Numbered from the stretch's first letter, positions 31,297 through 52,388 are shown. The stretch: DNA of 64,000 nt from Lachnospiraceae bacterium (GCA_017634455.1 JAGBNK010000017.1:59625-123624); one strand, 5' to 3'. Notes: a model not told the origin generated them from the letters alone. Program-made: numbers and translations.

Positions 31297-31337
31297 TAAA
31301 ACGGATTAATGCAAATTGCATTAATCCGTTTTTTTAT
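31297..31337. terminator. Bidirectional rho-independent terminator (pckA and the convergent gene)
   Basis: Near-perfect palindrome AACGGATTAATGCAA/TTGCATTAATCCGTT (31300-31330), flanked by an A-run and a 7-nt T-run. Confidence 0.8.
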
Positions 31338-44045: not shown

Positions 44046-44077
44046 TGTAAAAATCCTCCTTTAAAATAAATATATAT

Positions 44078-44096
44078 ATGTAAATTAGTATTACAT
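44078..44096. promoter_or_regulatory. Dyad ATGTAA-N7-TTACAT upstream of precursor B
   Basis: 6-bp perfect inverted repeat in the 74-bp gap between the Big_2 gene and precursor B. Confidence 0.35.
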
Positions 44097-44119
44097 ATCC
44101 ATTTTGTAAACACTCCCAG

Positions 44120-47432: not shown

Positions 47433-47509
47433 TTTGTTACCTCCTTTTTTCTTGTATTTGGGGTTACTTGTCATATCTATTTGCAACTAGACATAACATA
47501 TATCAGCAT

Positions 47510-47545
47510 ATGTTTATCAAATTATTGGCGCCATATGATAAACAT
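47510..47545. promoter_or_regulatory. 10-bp perfect inverted repeat upstream of precursor A
   Basis: ATGTTTATCA (47510-47519) and TGATAAACAT (47536-47545) are separated by 16 nt containing GGCGCC. On the minus strand the distal arm supplies a TTGATA -35-like hexamer. Confidence 0.4.
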
Positions 47546-47583
47546 CTGATGATATTCATTGCTGTTAAAGAAATCAATCTAAA

Positions 47584-48111: not shown

Positions 48112-50400
48112 TTATGTATAAGCAATTTCCTGCTCATCAAAAAATTGTTTGTACCCTTTGGGCTTCTCAGTGTCGTATGAATCATCTGCAACTTCATATA
48201 TTCCCTGTTGCATCTGCCAAAGGCGATAATACTGTCCTTGAAGCTTTATAAGTTCATCATGACTACCCTGCTCTGCGATATGACCTTTATCCATTACAAT
48301 TATCTGATCACAATTACGAACAGTAGCTAACCGATGAGCTACAATCAGCATCGTCTTATTTTTAAACTTGTTATATATCATGTCAAAAATTATATTTTCT
48401 GTTACAAAATCCAAATTAGATGTAGATTCATCCATAATGTAAAACTCATTATCTTTAAGAAATGCCCTGGCCAATGCAATACGCTGCTTCTCACCTCCGC
48501 TCAAACCGTTTCCAGCCTCCTCCAAATACGTGTAATATTGCATCGGAAGCTTCTTTATAAACTCATGTGCATCTGCTTTTTTAGCAGCTTCCTTCACTTC
48601 ATCTAAAGTAGCAGTCTGTCTACTCACTCTTATATTGTCATATATACTTTTAGAAAATAATTCTATATTCTGTGGAACATATGAGATTGCTCTACGCAAA
48701 GAACTGTTATGATACTCATTAATATCCACCCCATCTATAGTTATATATCCCTTCTCCGGCTCATAATATTTCAACAATAATTTTGCTATAGTGGATTTAC
48801 CACTTCCACTAGCCCCAACCAATGCAACTTTTTGCCCCTTTGGAATAGTAAAAGTTACATCTTCAAGCGCAGGTTTCCTATTCCCATATCTAAAAGTTAC
48901 ATTTTTAAATTCTATATCTCCATCAACTTTTTCAATCATCTGATATTGTTGATCAATACGCACTTCTGAAACAAAATCTGGCAAGCAACTGTCTTCAGCC
49001 AGTCCGACCTCCTGTTCTCGCTCATAATCTAATATTTCAGACAGCCTCTTCATCGAAATATTTGCTTCCTGAATCTGCAACTGTAACCCCACTAAATTAC
49101 TTACAGGATTAGTAAAATAACCTGCCAACGTCATAAATGCCATATAAGTTCCAAGTGTCAATTCATTATTTATTACTGATGAAATTCCCACATACATCAG
49201 CACTAAATTTCCTGCTCCAGATATAATGCTTGAAATAGTCCCCTGTACATTAGAAAGCATCGATTCCTTATATCCTATTCTTAAAGCCTTGATATATTCA
49301 CGCTCGATATTTTCTAACTCTATTTCTTCATTTGCGTTACCTTTTATTGTTTCAAAAGCTCTCAAGCTCTCAATTATTTCGGAATTTAATGCAGAATTCT
49401 GCTGCATCTGCTCTTCATTAATCCTTTTATATGGCTGTTTAAATATAAAAACCAAAACAATACTAATTAATGTCATAATCGCAATTATGCCAAATAATTT
49501 CGGATTCATCTGCCATAGAATAATCCCCGAGACAAAAGCCATACCTATATCCATAAACAATGATAATGCAATACTCGTAAAAATATTTTTAATAGTAAAT
49601 GCATCAGAAAATCTCGTCGTTATATCTCCCGTTCTTCTACTGGCAAAAAACTTCATCGGCAGCTTATAAATATGCTCGAAATATCCAAGCATAAGCGGTA
49701 TGTCAATTTTTATAGACAAATGTAGAAGTATCCATTGTCTGATAAAACTTACCATAATTGACGTAAGATTAACTCCAATAAAGACTGCCAACATCATTTT
49801 CAGAACGTCTTGTTGCTGATATGGAAGTATCTCATCATATATAACATTATTAAATAGAGATGAAACAATCCCAAGAACTGTCACAATAAGAGATGCCAAT
49901 AATGCATAAGCAAATAGTTTCTTCTGTGGCCAAAGCAATTTAATATAGCGTTCAAAAACTTTATTCCCTTTTATCTTTCCAGTAGTAAATTCATTATTGG
50001 GTTTCAGCAAAAGCAAAACGCCTGTAAAAGACTTATAAAATTCATCAATCTCGACTCTCATCAAGTCTCTTGCTGGATCACCGTATATCACATATTTCTT
50101 TGTTATTTTAAAAATAACAACAAAATGTGAAAATCCTTCCTTTGTAATAACATTTGCTATTGCCGGAAGAGTATACTTACTTTTAAACCCATCTTTATCT
50201 ACTTTTACCGCCTGTGATATAAAACCTAGCTCATCTGCGCACTTGGATAAACCAACCAAATTAGTCCCTTTTATATCTGTGCCCATAATATCTCGCAAAC
50301 TGGTAATCGTCGTCTCTTTCTTATAATGTAGGCACACCATCGCCATACAGGCTGCAGCACAGTCAGTAATATCATGCTGTTTTACAAATGTATATCTCAT
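48112..50400 (-). CDS. Peptidase C39-domain ABC exporter (bacteriocin/GG-leader processing transporter)
   Basis: N-terminal C39 motifs with the catalytic Cys (QHDITDCAAACMAMV) and the His region (FSHFVVIFKI...YGDP). Six-TM domain, Walker A GASGSGKST, signature LSGGEKQR, Walker B YIMDESTS. Confidence 0.93.
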   Translation of the reverse strand: MRYTFVKQHDITDCAAACMAMVCLHYKKETTITSLRDIMGTDIKGTNLVGLSKCADELGFISQAVKVDKDGFKSKYTLPAIANVITKEGFSHFVVIFKITKKYVIYGDPARDLMRVEIDEFYKSFTGVLLLLKPNNEFTTGKIKGNKVFERYIKLLWPQKKLFAYALLASLIVTVLGIVSSLFNNVIYDEILPYQQQDVLKMMLAVFIGVNLTSIMVSFIRQWILLHLSIKIDIPLMLGYFEHIYKLPMKFFASRRTGDITTRFSDAFTIKNIFTSIALSLFMDIGMAFVSGIILWQMNPKLFGIIAIMTLISIVLVFIFKQPYKRINEEQMQQNSALNSEIIESLRAFETIKGNANEEIELENIEREYIKALRIGYKESMLSNVQGTISSIISGAGNLVLMYVGISSVINNELTLGTYMAFMTLAGYFTNPVSNLVGLQLQIQEANISMKRLSEILDYEREQEVGLAEDSCLPDFVSEVRIDQQYQMIEKVDGDIEFKNVTFRYGNRKPALEDVTFTIPKGQKVALVGASGSGKSTIAKLLLKYYEPEKGYITIDGVDINEYHNSSLRRAISYVPQNIELFSKSIYDNIRVSRQTATLDEVKEAAKKADAHEFIKKLPMQYYTYLEEAGNGLSGGEKQRIALARAFLKDNEFYIMDESTSNLDFVTENIIFDMIYNKFKNKTMLIVAHRLATVRNCDQIIVMDKGHIAEQGSHDELIKLQGQYYRLWQMQQGIYEVADDSYDTEKPKGYKQFFDEQEIAYT

Positions 50401-50421
50401 ATTATCTAAGCCACCTGTTTT

Positions 50422-50658
50422 TTATTTAATCAAAATCCAATCTGATAGCCATCTTTTATTTTTTCCATCATATAACCGCCTATACATTTTCCCATTTATA
50501 ACTTTTTTGATCCATTTATACTCTGTTTTCATCGATATAGATACTATTTCTTCCTGTCCCAACTCTCCATAACCAGTATACATAACTGGGTTAATTAACA
50601 AGCTCATTAATACAAACGCAATTACTATATTTACCTTTTTTGAAATACTTCTACGCAT
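50422..50658 (-). CDS. Small signal-anchored protein (78 aa), unknown function
   Basis: GGGGG RBS. N-terminal hydrophobic helix NIVIAFVLMSLLINPV. The stop lies 21 nt before the ABC start (AGGTGG RBS), so the two are probably co-transcribed. Confidence 0.45.
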   Translation of the reverse strand: MRRSISKKVNIVIAFVLMSLLINPVMYTGYGELGQEEIVSISMKTEYKWIKKVINGKMYRRLYDGKNKRWLSDWILIK

Positions 50659-50668
50659 AATAATCCCC

Positions 50669-50706
50669 CTAAAAAAATAATCACGAAAGAACCTTTCGTG
50701 ATTATT
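50669..50706 (-). terminator. Strong rho-independent terminator after the BlaR1-like gene (also a perfect 14-bp DNA palindrome)
   Basis: AATAATCACGAAAG (50676-50689) pairs with CTTTCGTGATTATT (50693-50706) around a 3-nt loop. A 7-nt U-tract follows on the minus transcript and runs directly into the RBS of the 78-aa ORF. Confidence 0.7.
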
Positions 50707-50732
50707 GTAACACTGTTAGCTTGTAGCTTCAA
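50704..50732 (-). promoter_or_regulatory. Putative promoter overlapping the terminator 5-prime arm
   Basis: The minus strand reads TTGAAG (50732-50727), a 17-nt spacer, then TACAAT (50709-50704). The palindrome TAACA-G-TGTTA (50718-50708) overlaps the -10. Confidence 0.4.
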
Positions 50733-50751
50733 GTTTTACTGTATCAATATT

Positions 50752-51921
50752 TTATTTATTCTCTCTAATCGCCAAACTATCTGGCAACAAGTACTCATAC
50801 CATTTATCTCTCTCATTAATAACATTTATACGCTCAAAAGATTCATCCATTTGTGAAATGCTCCCAAAATAAGCATCCTTATAATAAATATCATATGTGC
50901 CATCCGATTTATGAATCATATAAGAGTTTTCCGGTGTAAGATATACCGCACCCTCTTCTTCAAGAACATCTTCATCAACATAGTCCGGTTCAAAAATAAA
51001 AATATATGACAATACAAAAAAACATACTGTCATTAATAAATAAAAGTACCTTTTAAACGAGACTTTTCCCGAACTAGTCATATATTCAAACCGCTTCTTC
51101 AGAATGCTTTTATTAGATGCAAGTGTCATAATTGGTGTTTTTTCTTTATTAGCTTTATCATTTAAAGAAGCTACCAATAATTCCATATACTTTATAGTCG
51201 TTTCTTTATTTGACGCGATCTCATGATCAACCCGAATTTCTAATATTTCATTTGTTTCATTTCTAACTAGCAAAGTGACTGGATTCCACCAAAACATACA
51301 ATTCATTAGTGCAACAAAAAATTTTAACAATAAATCGCAGTTATTATAATGGGTAATCTCATGCCTTAATATTAATTCAAGATTATCATCTGAGAGCTCT
51401 ATATCTTGTGGCAATAAAACTTTTTGAACAAATAAACCCGCAATCTGAGCACTTTCTACCTTATTTGTTCTCAAAACAATCAATCTTAAAAGGCGCTTCT
51501 TCTTATACTTTTCTAAACATTTTCTAATGTTTTTATCAGCTGTAACATCAACTGCATTCCTACCAATATACTTATCAAATCGAACTGTCTCTCTTATTAA
51601 ATATACACTTTTAATTGCAAATCCAAACATCCATATTAGTAATAGAACATGCGCCACTCGAATTCTAGTACCGCCAATTTCATTCCACATTACATCTAAA
51701 TATTTGGATATATTATATGGCCAATATACATTTCTACTAATATTAAGCATCTCAACCGGAAATGCCAACCGAATAATCAATAATATAATCGAAATTATTA
51801 TTGTATTATAACCGATAGCAACTATTTTTTTGGTACTATTCAACACAATATATATATAAACAATAAACAAATTACACGATATAATTGTTGTTATAACTGA
51901 TGAAACCGTAAAATCAATCAT
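50752..51921 (-). CDS. BlaR1/MecR1-like M56 metalloprotease signal transducer lacking a penicillin-binding sensor domain
   Basis: Polytopic N-terminus, HExxH zinc motif (HEITHYNNCD), a further TM helix, then an unrecognised domain of about 90 aa. TAATG overlap with the blaI-like gene. Confidence 0.78.
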   Translation of the reverse strand: MIDFTVSSVITTIISCNLFIVYIYIVLNSTKKIVAIGYNTIIISIILLIIRLAFPVEMLNISRNVYWPYNISKYLDVMWNEIGGTRIRVAHVLLLIWMFGFAIKSVYLIRETVRFDKYIGRNAVDVTADKNIRKCLEKYKKKRLLRLIVLRTNKVESAQIAGLFVQKVLLPQDIELSDDNLELILRHEITHYNNCDLLLKFFVALMNCMFWWNPVTLLVRNETNEILEIRVDHEIASNKETTIKYMELLVASLNDKANKEKTPIMTLASNKSILKKRFEYMTSSGKVSFKRYFYLLMTVCFFVLSYIFIFEPDYVDEDVLEEEGAVYLTPENSYMIHKSDGTYDIYYKDAYFGSISQMDESFERINVINERDKWYEYLLPDSLAIRENK

Positions 51922-52322
51922 TATTTAATCTCTTTTTTGTACTCCTCAAGCATCTTTTCTAATTCAGCTACATCTTTTAATCTCTGTTTCTTTGACTTTT
52001 CTGCTCCAAGCAATCCACATACAAGTTCAATAGCTGGACGCTTATTGAGTTTCTCCATCTCATCAATATAGCATCTTGTCTGGAACTCCTCAGCAGTCAT
52101 TGTGGGCAAATAGCTTCTGCACAACACTGTTCCGCTATATCCGATTTCTCCAACCTTGATATATTCAAATTTAAGCAGCCTTCTAAGTTCAGCCTGTACA
52201 GTATTTACATTTAACTCAGAATTAATGTCACATATCTCGCTATAAGACAACGGCTTCTCTGTGTTCCATAAAATATCCATAATTTTTCTTTGTGCCTTTG
52301 TAAGTCTTTGCATAATAATCAT
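51921..52322 (-). CDS. BlaI/MecI/CopY-family winged-helix repressor
   Basis: 133 aa. The TKAQRKIMDILWNTEKPLSYSEICDINSELNVNTVQAELRRLLKFEYI pattern is typical of penicillinase-repressor family proteins. Confidence 0.83.
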   Translation of the reverse strand: MIIMQRLTKAQRKIMDILWNTEKPLSYSEICDINSELNVNTVQAELRRLLKFEYIKVGEIGYSGTVLCRSYLPTMTAEEFQTRCYIDEMEKLNKRPAIELVCGLLGAEKSKKQRLKDVAELEKMLEEYKKEIK

Positions 52323-52359: not shown

Positions 52360-52388
52360 ATTTTAAATAACTGCATTTCTTATCGCAA
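52360..52388 (-). promoter_or_regulatory. Putative promoter of the blaI/blaR1-like operon
   Basis: The minus strand reads TTGCGA (52388-52383), a 17-nt spacer, then TAAAAT (52365-52360), directly after the upstream terminator. GTAACACAATTA (52355-52344) lies just downstream of the -10. Confidence 0.45.

What the first reader, a model, noticed from the sequence alone, without database searches (positions are those of the whole stretch)
50669..50732. A terminator, a promoter and a perfect palindrome are superimposed between the sensor pair and the exporter genes
- **Terminator:** a 14-bp perfect stem (AATAATCACGAAAG/CTTTCGTGATTATT) plus U7 should stop transcripts coming from the blaI/blaR1-like genes. 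The U-tract runs straight into the RBS of the next gene, leaving no room for a downstream promoter.
- **Promoter:** a reasonable TTGAAG-17-TACAAT promoter lies just upstream. Its -10 overlaps the first 3 nt of the 5-prime arm. Transcripts starting about 7 nt later would lack most of that arm and could not form the terminator.
- **Consequence:** the same DNA insulates the regulator operon yet lets promoter-initiated transcripts read into the exporter and cargo genes.
- **Operator candidates:** the 14-bp palindrome at +1 and TAACA-G-TGTTA over the -10 are ideally placed repressor sites.
Basis: partly seen in the sequence, partly recalled or inferred. Interest (0 to 1): 0.6.

Follow-up and report, generated by a model that had tools for sequence, protein, structure and literature searches.

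The report
Promoter firing from inside a terminator
Between a BlaI/BlaR1-like regulator pair and the next gene lies a 75-base element that most likely stops incoming transcripts with a hairpin while starting new ones inside that hairpin, so they escape it; four diverged versions of the locus keep this layout with different hairpin sequences.

Summary
All features lie on the minus strand:
- **Promoter:** TTGAAG-17-TGtTACAAT at 50732-50704.
- **Hairpin:** a perfect 14-bp stem at 50706-50676, -14.9 kcal/mol, starting inside the -10.
- **Downstream:** five U, then a GGGGG ribosome-binding site and the ATG at 50658.

- **Conservation:** thirteen related loci fall into four allele types whose BlaR1-like proteins are only 41-56% identical. 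All keep the same register of -35, 17-nt spacer, TGn, -10, hairpin, U-tract, ribosome-binding site and ATG.
- **Covariation:** the hairpin sequence differs in types C and D. Five stem positions change on both sides, several G·U pairs appear, no pair is broken, and the energy stays near -15 kcal/mol.
- **Start site:** the base 7 nt after the -10, the predicted +1, is G in every type.

- TAACA-G-TGTTA occurs in this strain only, so it is not a credible operator.
- The next gene is not exporter or cargo. It encodes a small secreted protein that follows BlaR1-like genes in about 20 of 24 distant loci.
- Whether the palindrome is also a repressor site is unresolved.

No RNA data could be obtained, so start and stop sites remain inferred. 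The closest precedent, promoter-coupled terminators, has the opposite order of elements.

The parts
51921..52322 (-). blaI-like repressor gene (133 aa, Penicillinase_R winged helix)
   Evidence: Pfam PF03965, E = 1.4e-7. About 97% DNA identity to the B-type locus L067.
50752..51921 (-). blaR1-like M56 membrane metalloprotease gene (389 aa, HEITH motif, no penicillin-binding sensor domain); its transcripts should end at the hairpin
   Evidence: Pfam PF05569, E = 9e-25, is the only domain. NCBIfam blaR1_generic scores 69.9 bits against a cut-off of 400. Only 47% aa identity to the B-type allele.
50727..50732 (-). -35 hexamer TTGAAG of promoter P2
   Evidence: The aligned column reads TTGAAG, TTGAAT, TTGAAA or TTGTAA in the four allele types, always 17 nt from the -10.
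50704..50712 (-). Extended -10 TGtTACAAT of P2; its last 3 nt are the first 3 nt of the hairpin 5' arm
   Evidence: TGn plus TACAAT, TAAAAT or TAAGAT is kept in the same register in all types. In type C it lies inside the blaR1 coding sequence and contains its stop codon.
50697..50697 (-). Predicted transcription start (+1) of P2, a G 7 nt after the -10 and preceded by a pyrimidine
   Evidence: Inferred from promoter geometry. This position is G in all five sequence versions while neighbouring stem positions covary. Not mapped experimentally.
50676..50706 (-). Hairpin AATAATCACGAAAG-GTT-CTTTCGTGATTATT; intrinsic terminator stem for blaI-blaR1 transcripts and a possible protein-binding palindrome
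   Evidence: -14.9 kcal/mol, z = -7. Identical in 13 A/B-type loci. Replaced by different hairpins of equal energy in types C and D, with five double-sided changes and no broken pair.
50671..50675 (-). U-tract (5 U after the stem, 7 counting the stem end)
   Evidence: A T-rich tract follows the hairpin in all allele types.
50665..50669 (-). Ribosome-binding site GGGGG of the small gene, 6 nt before the ATG
   Evidence: It reads GGAGG, GGAGA, GGGGG or GGAG in the other types.
50422..50658 (-). Small secreted-protein gene (78 aa; signal peptide; C-terminal W.[YK]K..nGk.YrR.Y.....W..W motif), first gene of the P2 unit and third member of the module
   Evidence: Homologous small genes follow BlaR1-like genes in about 20 of 24 distant loci (a strict pattern finds 11). 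No Pfam or NCBIfam family matches.
48112..50400 (-). C39-peptidase ABC exporter gene, 21 nt after the small gene and probably co-transcribed from P2
   Evidence: Pfam C39, ABC_membrane and ABC_tran. No convincing minus-strand terminator between 50676 and about 41900.
50708..50718 (-). TAACAGTGTTA palindrome in the P2 spacer; judged a chance feature of this strain
   Evidence: Not significant in the window. Not kept in any relative.
52360..52388 (-). Promoter-like site P1 (TTGCGA-17-TAAAAT) upstream of blaI, preceded by the terminator at 52429-52397
   Evidence: The region is about 90% conserved in L067.

Best explanation
The 75-bp segment is a compact boundary between two transcription units, built from two overlapping elements.

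1. **Termination.** Transcripts of the blaI-like and blaR1-like genes, started at P1 near 52360, run into the hairpin at 50706-50676 and its U-tract. They end just before the ribosome-binding site of the next gene. That gene is therefore neither transcribed in full nor translated from these RNAs.
2. **Initiation.** An extended -10 promoter, TTGAAG-17-TGtTACAAT, lies immediately upstream of the hairpin, and its -10 shares 3 nt with the 5' arm. RNA polymerase starting there begins at about G 50697, inside the 5' arm.
3. **Escape.** These RNAs carry only 5 of the 14 arm nucleotides and cannot form the terminator. They read on into the small secreted-protein gene and the C39-ABC exporter behind it.

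**Basis.**
- *Shown by sequence and comparison:* the elements, their fixed register, stem covariation and promoter conservation.
- *Inferred:* the actual 3' and 5' ends, the efficiency of termination, and what regulates P2.
For: **Hairpin**
- -14.9 kcal/mol, z = -7, comparable to the neighbouring terminator at 52429-52397 (-18.4).
- It has a U-tract on the gene strand only.

**Conservation in close relatives**
- Thirteen A/B-type loci, giving seven distinct versions of the intergenic region with the window's own, keep the -35 (TTGAAG, TTGAAT or TTGAAA), a 17-nt spacer of variable sequence, TGn and the -10 (TACAAT or TAAAAT).

**Conservation in distant alleles**
- Types C (L098) and D (L099) have BlaR1 41% and 56% identity steps away. 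Both have the same layout with different hairpin sequences.
- In type C the promoter sits inside the blaR1 coding sequence.
- The scan tool independently reports TTGTAA-17-TGnTAAAAT in L098 and TTGAAA-17-TGnTAAAAT in L067.

**Stem covariation, in register with the -10**
- Stem positions 4-14 pair in all five versions.
- Double-sided changes occur at positions 4, 7, 10, 11 and 12. G·U pairs occur at 9, 10, 11 and 14. No pair is broken.
- Energies are -15.1 to -18.5 kcal/mol.
- Types C and D have GAAA tetraloops.
- The G·U pairs work only in RNA of the gene strand.

**Start site and escape**
- Position 13, the predicted +1, is G in all versions.
- RNAs starting there show no significant fold: z = -0.02, -0.98 and +0.52.

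**Independent relatives**
- The distant loci L029 and L030 have a terminator followed by a separate promoter between blaR1 and the small gene. A transcriptional break at this junction is therefore recurrent.
Against:
- The promoter match is 9 of 12 and such matches are common in this AT-rich DNA. The D-type promoter is only 8 of 12 and falls below the scan threshold.
- The scan tool did not list the L067 and L098 hairpins as terminators. Probably it extends the stem into the U-tract, which leaves too few T in the tail.
- The stem has only 4 G-C pairs in 14.
- In most distant relatives the small gene is translationally coupled to blaR1 with no break. Separate transcription is therefore not essential to the module.
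- The perfect identity of the A and B hairpins, amid flanks at 40-71% identity, is more than a plain terminator would need.
Confidence: 0.68

Rival explanations
1. The palindrome is also, or mainly, the DNA operator of the BlaI-like repressor. Bound across -9 to +22 of P2, the repressor would block initiation and could act as a roadblock to read-through. Cleavage of the repressor by the BlaR1-like protease would then switch on the small gene and the exporter. This does not exclude the terminator role.
For: - The A-type and B-type loci share a 98%-identical BlaI and a 100%-identical 31-nt palindrome plus -10.
- The blaR1 gene, the rest of the intergenic region and the small gene around it are only 40-71% identical. 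At 71% background identity, 31 unchanged sites have a probability of about 1e-5.
- Types C and D have BlaI only 52-55% identical and carry different palindromes.
- The position over +1 is the classic place for a repressor.
- Precedent: the LexA box that is also the yobI terminator stem (bioRxiv 10.64898/2026.08.19.745784).
Against: - The palindrome has no TACA/TGTA-type box, whereas distant relatives carry such boxes upstream of blaI, for example ATTACAATTAATTGTAAT in L045.
- There is no second copy or half-site at the blaI promoter or elsewhere in the island or genome.
- The recognition helix (NTVQA.LR) is nearly the same in types A, C and D although their palindromes differ.
- The D-type stem has three G·U positions, which are mismatches in a DNA palindrome.
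Confidence: 0.35
2. The element is only a terminator or a partial attenuator. The promoter-like hexamers are AT-rich coincidence, or the A-rich tract often found before terminators. The small gene and exporter would then be expressed by read-through from P1 or from a promoter elsewhere.
For: - Promoter-like sites are as frequent as in shuffled sequence.
- The TAAAAT and A-rich bases before the stem pair with the U-tract in types B, C and D.
- In most distant relatives the small gene is co-transcribed with blaR1.
Against: - TTG at -35, the exact 17-nt spacing, TGn and TA...T stay in one register across four allele types, while the spacer sequence varies freely.
- In type C they persist inside coding sequence.
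- No other promoter fits in the 17 nt between stem and ATG.
- Among 691 strict terminators in this genome, no other has an extended -10 promoter at this offset. The overlay is therefore not a by-product of terminator composition.
Confidence: 0.12
3. The hairpin is a regulated leader element of a transcript that starts upstream of it. It would be a terminator/antiterminator switch or an RNA stability or processing signal, rather than a boundary between two transcription units.
For: The hairpin lies directly before a ribosome-binding site, as in leader attenuators. The conserved GAAAG in or next to the loop of all types could be a recognition feature.
Against: - No alternative (antiterminator) pairing is evident in the fold of the region.
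- No Rfam family matches.
- The only conserved promoter starts inside the stem.
- The upstream sequence is the end of the blaR1 coding region.
Confidence: 0.06

Closest known systems
Promoter-coupled terminators (Fletcher, Forrest, Cooper, Adams, Kapanidis, Grainger; bioRxiv 10.64898/2026.08.19.745784, 2026)
   Same: A terminator and the promoter of the next tandem, functionally related transcription unit share the same short intergenic DNA. This saves space and couples the two units.
   Different: - **Order in their class:** the termination site lies about 10 bp upstream of the start site. The stem DNA serves as the -35, and the T-tract lies just upstream of the -10.
- **Order here:** it is reversed. 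The -35 and -10 precede the stem, the start is inside the 5' arm, and the termination point is about 25 nt downstream of the start.
- **Consequence:** the promoter's own RNA must cross the 3' arm and U-tract, and it escapes only because it lacks the 5' arm.
- A text search of the preprint for five phrases describing this order found it nowhere.
yobI terminator / LexA box / ruvA promoter of E. coli (same preprint, Figure S6)
   Same: One palindrome serves both as a terminator stem and as a repressor site at the neighbouring promoter. The novel reading here proposes the same.
   Different: Binding of a repressor to the palindrome is shown there and only inferred here. The promoter geometry also differs, as described above.
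bla and mec operators of Staphylococcus aureus and Bacillus licheniformis (BlaI/MecI dyads with TACA/TGTA cores overlapping promoters; from general knowledge)
   Same: A BlaI-family repressor gene and an M56 protease gene lie next to a promoter that carries a long palindrome over the -10/+1 region.
   Different: - The palindrome here lacks the TACA/TGTA core and is not repeated at the blaI promoter.
- The sensor has no penicillin-binding domain.
- The regulated gene is a small secreted protein rather than a beta-lactamase or PBP2a.
Pherotype loci such as agrBDC, comCD and blpCH (hypervariable signal and receptor between conserved flanks; from general knowledge)
   Same: A sharply bounded hypervariable block covers a membrane sensor and a small secreted product. 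The regulator and the export genes on either side are conserved.
   Different: The sensor is an M56 protease rather than a histidine kinase. The secreted product is a protein of about 50 residues with a Sec-type signal peptide. No signalling role has been shown.

Membership tests
Intrinsic (Rho-independent) terminator | Stable stem-loop on the transcribed strand, directly after a gene | tested here: met
   14-bp stem, -14.9 kcal/mol, z = -7. It starts 45 nt after the blaR1 stop codon.
Intrinsic (Rho-independent) terminator | U-rich tract immediately 3' of the stem | tested here: met
   Five U follow the stem, seven counting the stem end. A T-rich tract is kept in all allele types.
Intrinsic (Rho-independent) terminator | Structure rather than sequence conserved among relatives | tested here: met
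   Five stem positions change on both sides, there are four G·U positions and no broken pairs. Energy is constant across types A to D. Only three independent hairpin sequences exist, so the statistics are thin.
Intrinsic (Rho-independent) terminator | RNA 3' ends at the U-tract | not testable with these tools
Sigma-70/SigA promoter with extended -10 | -35-like and -10-like hexamers 17 +/- 1 nt apart, with TGn before the -10 | tested here: met
   TTGAAG-17-TGtTACAAT, 9 of 12 matches with TG.
Sigma-70/SigA promoter with extended -10 | Hexamers and spacing conserved while the spacer sequence varies | tested here: met
   Seven A/B versions plus types C and D. The D type reaches only 8 of 12.
Sigma-70/SigA promoter with extended -10 | Mapped transcription start | not testable with these tools
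   No RNA data. The predicted +1 is an invariant G.
Promoter-coupled terminator (Fletcher et al. 2026) | Termination and initiation sites of tandem units within 35 bp on the same strand | tested here: met
   The predicted +1 at 50697 and the predicted 3' ends at about 50675-50668 are roughly 25 nt apart. Both positions are predictions.
Promoter-coupled terminator (Fletcher et al. 2026) | Termination site upstream of the start site (mode about 10 bp), stem DNA acting as -35, T-tract upstream of the -10 | tested here: not met
   The order is reversed: the -35 and -10 precede the stem and +1 is inside the 5' arm.
BlaI/MecI-type operator | Dyad with a TACA/TGTA-type core | tested here: not met
   The palindrome reads ...ATCACGAAAG/CTTTCGTGAT.... 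The TAACA-G-TGTTA dyad is not conserved.
BlaI/MecI-type operator | Related site at the repressor's own promoter (autoregulation) | tested here: not met
   No copy or half-site enrichment in the window or genome. A loose AATAAT-N19-ATTATT resemblance upstream of blaI is not kept in L067.
BlaI/MecI-type operator | Specific binding by the repressor | not testable with these tools
   Needs a gel shift or footprint.
BlaI-BlaR1/MecI-MecR1 beta-lactam sensing system | Penicillinase_R repressor plus M56 protease with HExxH | tested here: met
   PF03965 and PF05569. HEITH is present in the translation.
BlaI-BlaR1/MecI-MecR1 beta-lactam sensing system | C-terminal penicillin-binding (transpeptidase-like) sensor domain | tested here: not met
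   The protein is 389 aa with M56 as the only Pfam domain. blaR1_generic scores 69.9 bits against a cut-off of 400 and covers model positions 102-387 of 585.

The most novel reading that the evidence does not exclude
The element is the fixed control point of a strain-specific signalling circuit.

- **Ligand and sensor:** the small secreted protein is the cognate ligand of the BlaR1-like protease.
- **Switch:** ligand binding makes the protease cleave the BlaI-like repressor. The repressor otherwise sits on the palindrome, blocking P2 and reinforcing termination.
- **Feedback:** release of P2 makes more ligand and turns on the double-glycine exporter and its bacteriocin-like cargo.
- **Evolution:** sensor and ligand diversify together as a cassette, so types A and B act like pherotypes. 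Repressor, palindrome and exporter stay constant.
Probability: 0.2. Interest if true: 0.8.

Novelty: new variant of a known kind. Interest (0 to 1): 0.5.

Why it matters
**Design.** The element shows a way to place a full stop and a fresh start within about 75 bp. The new transcript is immune to the terminator simply because it begins inside it. The recently described promoter-coupled terminators have the opposite order, so this would widen that concept. It would also offer a compact insulator-plus-promoter part for synthetic biology.

**Biology.** The element separates a constitutive-looking sensor and repressor unit from a small secreted protein and a bacteriocin-type export locus in rumen Lachnospiraceae. 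It is the one invariant piece inside a hypervariable sensor and secreted-protein cassette. That makes it the natural place to test how this uncharacterised BlaI/BlaR1-like module is wired.

Tried and rejected
- **Rfam:** no family matches at E <= 1 across 50300-51000.
- **Other copies of the palindrome:** none in the genome with up to 3 mismatches. Half-site matches number 22 against 20 expected.
- **TAACA-G-TGTTA as an operator:** rejected. It is not significant and not conserved.
- **A motif shared by P1 and P2:**
  - Only loose resemblances turned up: ACGAAAGG, AATAAT-N19-ATTATT, GTAACA/TGTTAC and ATTGT cores.
  - None is kept across alleles.
  - The search is inconclusive.
- **Solved structures:** a PDB sequence search with the BlaI-like protein, meant to map the recognition helix, gave no hit.
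- **The same geometry elsewhere in this genome:**
  - Among 691 strict terminators, no offset is clearly enriched for promoters.
  - Only this locus has an extended -10 promoter overlapping the 5' arm.
  - It is therefore not a general design of this organism.
- **A longer type-C context in species genomes:** none among 400 genomes of the family. It was found through the protein database instead.
- **Literature:** no paper links BlaI/BlaR1-like pairs to a small secreted protein or to double-glycine exporters.
- **Chance origin of the hairpin:** rejected.

Full report
**1. What is there**

All genes of this region lie on the minus strand. In reading order they are:

| Feature | Coordinates | Evidence |
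|---|---|---|
| blaI-like repressor gene | 51921-52322 | PF03965 |
| blaR1-like M56 protease gene, 389 aa, M56 domain only | 50752-51921 | PF05569 |
| Intergenic region, 93 nt | 50659-50751 | |
| 78-codon gene | 50422-50658 | |
| C39-peptidase ABC exporter gene | 48112-50400 | |
| Double-glycine cargo and accessory genes | further downstream | |

- The blaI ORF has its stop overlapping the blaR1 start.
- The exporter gene begins 21 nt after the 78-codon gene.

On the gene strand the intergenic region reads: TAA-(19 nt)-TTGAAG-(17 nt ending TGT)-TACAAT, then the hairpin.
- The last three bases of the -10 begin a perfect hairpin, AATAATCACGAAAG-GTT-CTTTCGTGATTATT (50706-50676).
- After the stem come TTTTT, A, GGGGG, ATTATT and ATG.
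- The scan tool lists both the promoter (9 of 12, with TG) and the terminator (14 pairs).

**2. Is it more than chance?**

- **Hairpin: yes.**
  - It folds at -14.9 kcal/mol, z = -7 against shuffles.
  - It is one of two perfect short-loop inverted repeats of at least 14 nt in 64 kb.
  - It is unique in the genome.
- **Promoter on its own: no.** Promoter-like sites are as common as in shuffled sequence.
- **TAACAGTGTTA on its own: no**.

**3. Relatives**

*Close relatives*
- The organism is a rumen Lachnospiraceae bacterium. The nearest named record is a roe-deer rumen MAG.
- Whole-genome, metagenome and protein-database searches gave 13 syntenic loci that reach this intergenic region. With the window's own, they give seven distinct versions of it.
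- All 13 loci carry the 31-nt hairpin unchanged.
- The -35 reads TTGAAG, TTGAAT or TTGAAA. The spacer is always 17 nt but varies in sequence (GCTAACAGTGT, GATAATGATGT, GCTAATAATGA, ATTAATAATGT, ACTAATAATGT). TGn is kept, and the -10 is TACAAT or TAAAAT.
- This is the expected signature of a working promoter. It also breaks the TAACA-G-TGTTA dyad in every relative.

*More distant alleles*
- Two further alleles were recovered through the protein database.
- **Type C (L098):** BlaR1 is about 41% identical to the window's and BlaI 55%. The sequence reads TTGTAA-17-TGgTAAAAT-AATTGTGTCGAAAGGCACAATTATT-TTTTT-GGGGG-7 nt-ATG. The promoter lies inside the end of the blaR1 coding sequence, and the stop codon is part of the -10.
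- **Type D (L099):** the sequence reads TTGTAA-17-TGaTAAGAT-GATTGCGTGAAAGCGTGGTCATCT-TTTTTT-..GGAG..ATG.
- Both hairpins fold at about -15 kcal/mol with GAAA tetraloops.

*Stem comparison, in register with the -10 hexamer*
- Stem positions 4-14 pair in all five versions.
- Positions 4 and 7 change from A-U to G-C in type D.
- Positions 10, 11 and 12 change from C-G, A-U, C-G to U-A, G-C, U-A in type C.
- Positions 9, 10, 11 and 14 show G·U pairs, and nothing is broken.
- G·U pairs are valid only in RNA of the gene strand.
- Position 13, seven bases after the -10, is G in every version and follows a pyrimidine. This fits a transcription start.
- RNAs beginning there have no significant structure.

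**4. Interpretation**

An intrinsic terminator ends the blaI-blaR1 transcript just before the next ribosome-binding site. A promoter abutting the hairpin launches transcripts that lack the 5' arm and so pass through.
- Independent support for a transcriptional break at this junction comes from two distant relatives, L029 and L030. There a terminator and then a separate TTGACT-17-TATAAT-type promoter lie between blaR1 and the small gene.
- In this genome the overlaid arrangement is singular. Of 691 strict terminators, only this one has an extended -10 promoter overlapping its 5' arm.
- None of this replaces RNA end mapping, which I could not do.

**5.

(a) *The downstream gene.*
- It is not exporter or cargo. 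It encodes a small secreted protein with a signal peptide and a C-terminal W.[YK]K..nGk.YrR.Y.....W..W motif.
- Homologues follow BlaR1-like genes in about 20 of 24 distant loci from Lachnospiraceae, Oscillospiraceae and relatives. They usually overlap blaR1 or lie within 40 nt of it.
- It matches no Pfam or NCBIfam family.
- The element therefore splits a conserved three-gene module.
- In type C the module precedes different genes, a DUF2712 protein and ABC-type transporter genes. So it is portable.

(b) *The TAACA-G-TGTTA operator.* It is not supported, as shown in section 3.

(c) *The palindrome as an operator.* This remains open.
- **For:**
  - Between the A-type window and the B-type L067, blaI is about 97% identical in DNA and the exporter about 98%.
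  - A block of about 1.4 kb (51880-50470), covering blaR1 and most of the small gene, is only 40-60% identical, and the upstream intergenic part 71%.
  - Inside that block the -10 plus hairpin (50710-50671) is 95-100% identical.
  - Hairpin identity thus follows repressor identity, not that of its neighbours.
- **Against:**
  - There is no TACA/TGTA-type core.
  - There is no second site at the blaI promoter or elsewhere.
  - Recognition helices are nearly identical in types A, C and D despite different palindromes.
  - The D stem has G·U positions.
- I put this at about one in three. It is compatible with the terminator role.

**6. Comparison with known systems**

- The nearest described concept is the promoter-coupled terminator of Fletcher et al. 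(bioRxiv 10.64898/2026.08.19.745784).
- In Acinetobacter, E. coli and B. subtilis, hundreds of termination sites lie about 10 bp upstream of a start site. The stem DNA serves as the -35 and the T-tract sits before the -10.
- In one case, yobI-ruvA, the stem is also a LexA box.
- The present element shares the dual use of intergenic DNA between related tandem units but has the opposite order. The start site is upstream of the termination point, inside the stem. Escape from termination therefore relies on a truncated 5' arm.
- A text search of that preprint for five phrases describing this order found it nowhere. Literature searches did not turn it up under another name.
- The gene pair itself is BlaI/BlaR1-like only in its repressor and protease domains. 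The penicillin-binding sensor is absent.

**7. Verdict**

The terminator-plus-promoter reading is well supported by comparison, with confidence about 0.68 for the joint mechanism.
- One operator proposal is rejected and the other is unresolved.
- It is a new variant of a known kind, of moderate interest.
- The more surprising lead is the hypervariable sensor and secreted-protein cassette around an invariant control element.

Noticed in passing
window 50470-51880 (minus strand), compared with L067: There is a sharply bounded hypervariable cassette. Nearly all of blaR1 and most of the small secreted-protein gene are only 40-60% identical in DNA between allele types A and B (47% in BlaR1 protein). 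The flanking blaI and C39-ABC exporter genes are 97-98% identical. This pattern resembles pherotype loci. L066, L077 and L080 carry a recombinant blaR1 with an A-type front and a B-type end.
   Followed up: partly
window 50422-50658; L004, L005, L025-L048, L067, L098, L099: An uncharacterised family of small secreted proteins (about 75-105 aa, signal peptide, C-terminal W.[YK]K..nGk.YrR.Y.....W..W motif) is encoded directly after sensor-less BlaR1-like genes in about 20 of 24 distant loci. It matches no Pfam or NCBIfam family.
   Followed up: partly
L066:1710-, L092:5181-, L094:3929-, L003/L070/L083/L084 downstream of the hairpin: At least three independent deletions in related strains begin 9-18 codons into the small gene and remove it together with part or all of the exporter and cargo region. 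The G002-type loci also have a nonsense codon at codon 3. The promoter, hairpin and ribosome-binding site remain intact in every case.
   Followed up: partly
L098:2475-7109: In the type C locus the blaI-blaR1-small module precedes different genes from those in the window: a DUF2712 protein, several unannotated proteins and an ABC ATPase, not a C39 exporter. The module therefore appears portable between effector loci.
   Followed up: no
window 47495-47560 and 44076-44098 (minus strand): Inverted repeats lie in front of the two double-glycine precursor genes. They are ATGTTTATCA...TGATAAACAT, AACATAT-N6-ATATGTT (near 47514), and ATATGTAAT-N5-ATTACATAT (44098-44076). They could be regulator sites. 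They do not resemble the 50706-50676 palindrome.
   Followed up: no
L028:2376-2429, L045 about 2400, L029-L031 upstream of blaI: Distant relatives carry BlaI-box-like dyads upstream of their blaI genes. L045 has ATTACAATTAATTGTAAT. L028 has ATTACAATTTATTGTAAT inside a 54-nt palindrome. L029 has TGTAAC-N14-GTTACA. The window's blaI leader has only a half-matching ACAATTAATAAT.
   Followed up: partly
window 31298-31332: A perfect 17-nt inverted repeat with a 1-nt gap, AAAACGGATTAATGCAA / TTGCATTAATCCGTTTT, is the longest perfect palindrome in the window.
   Followed up: no
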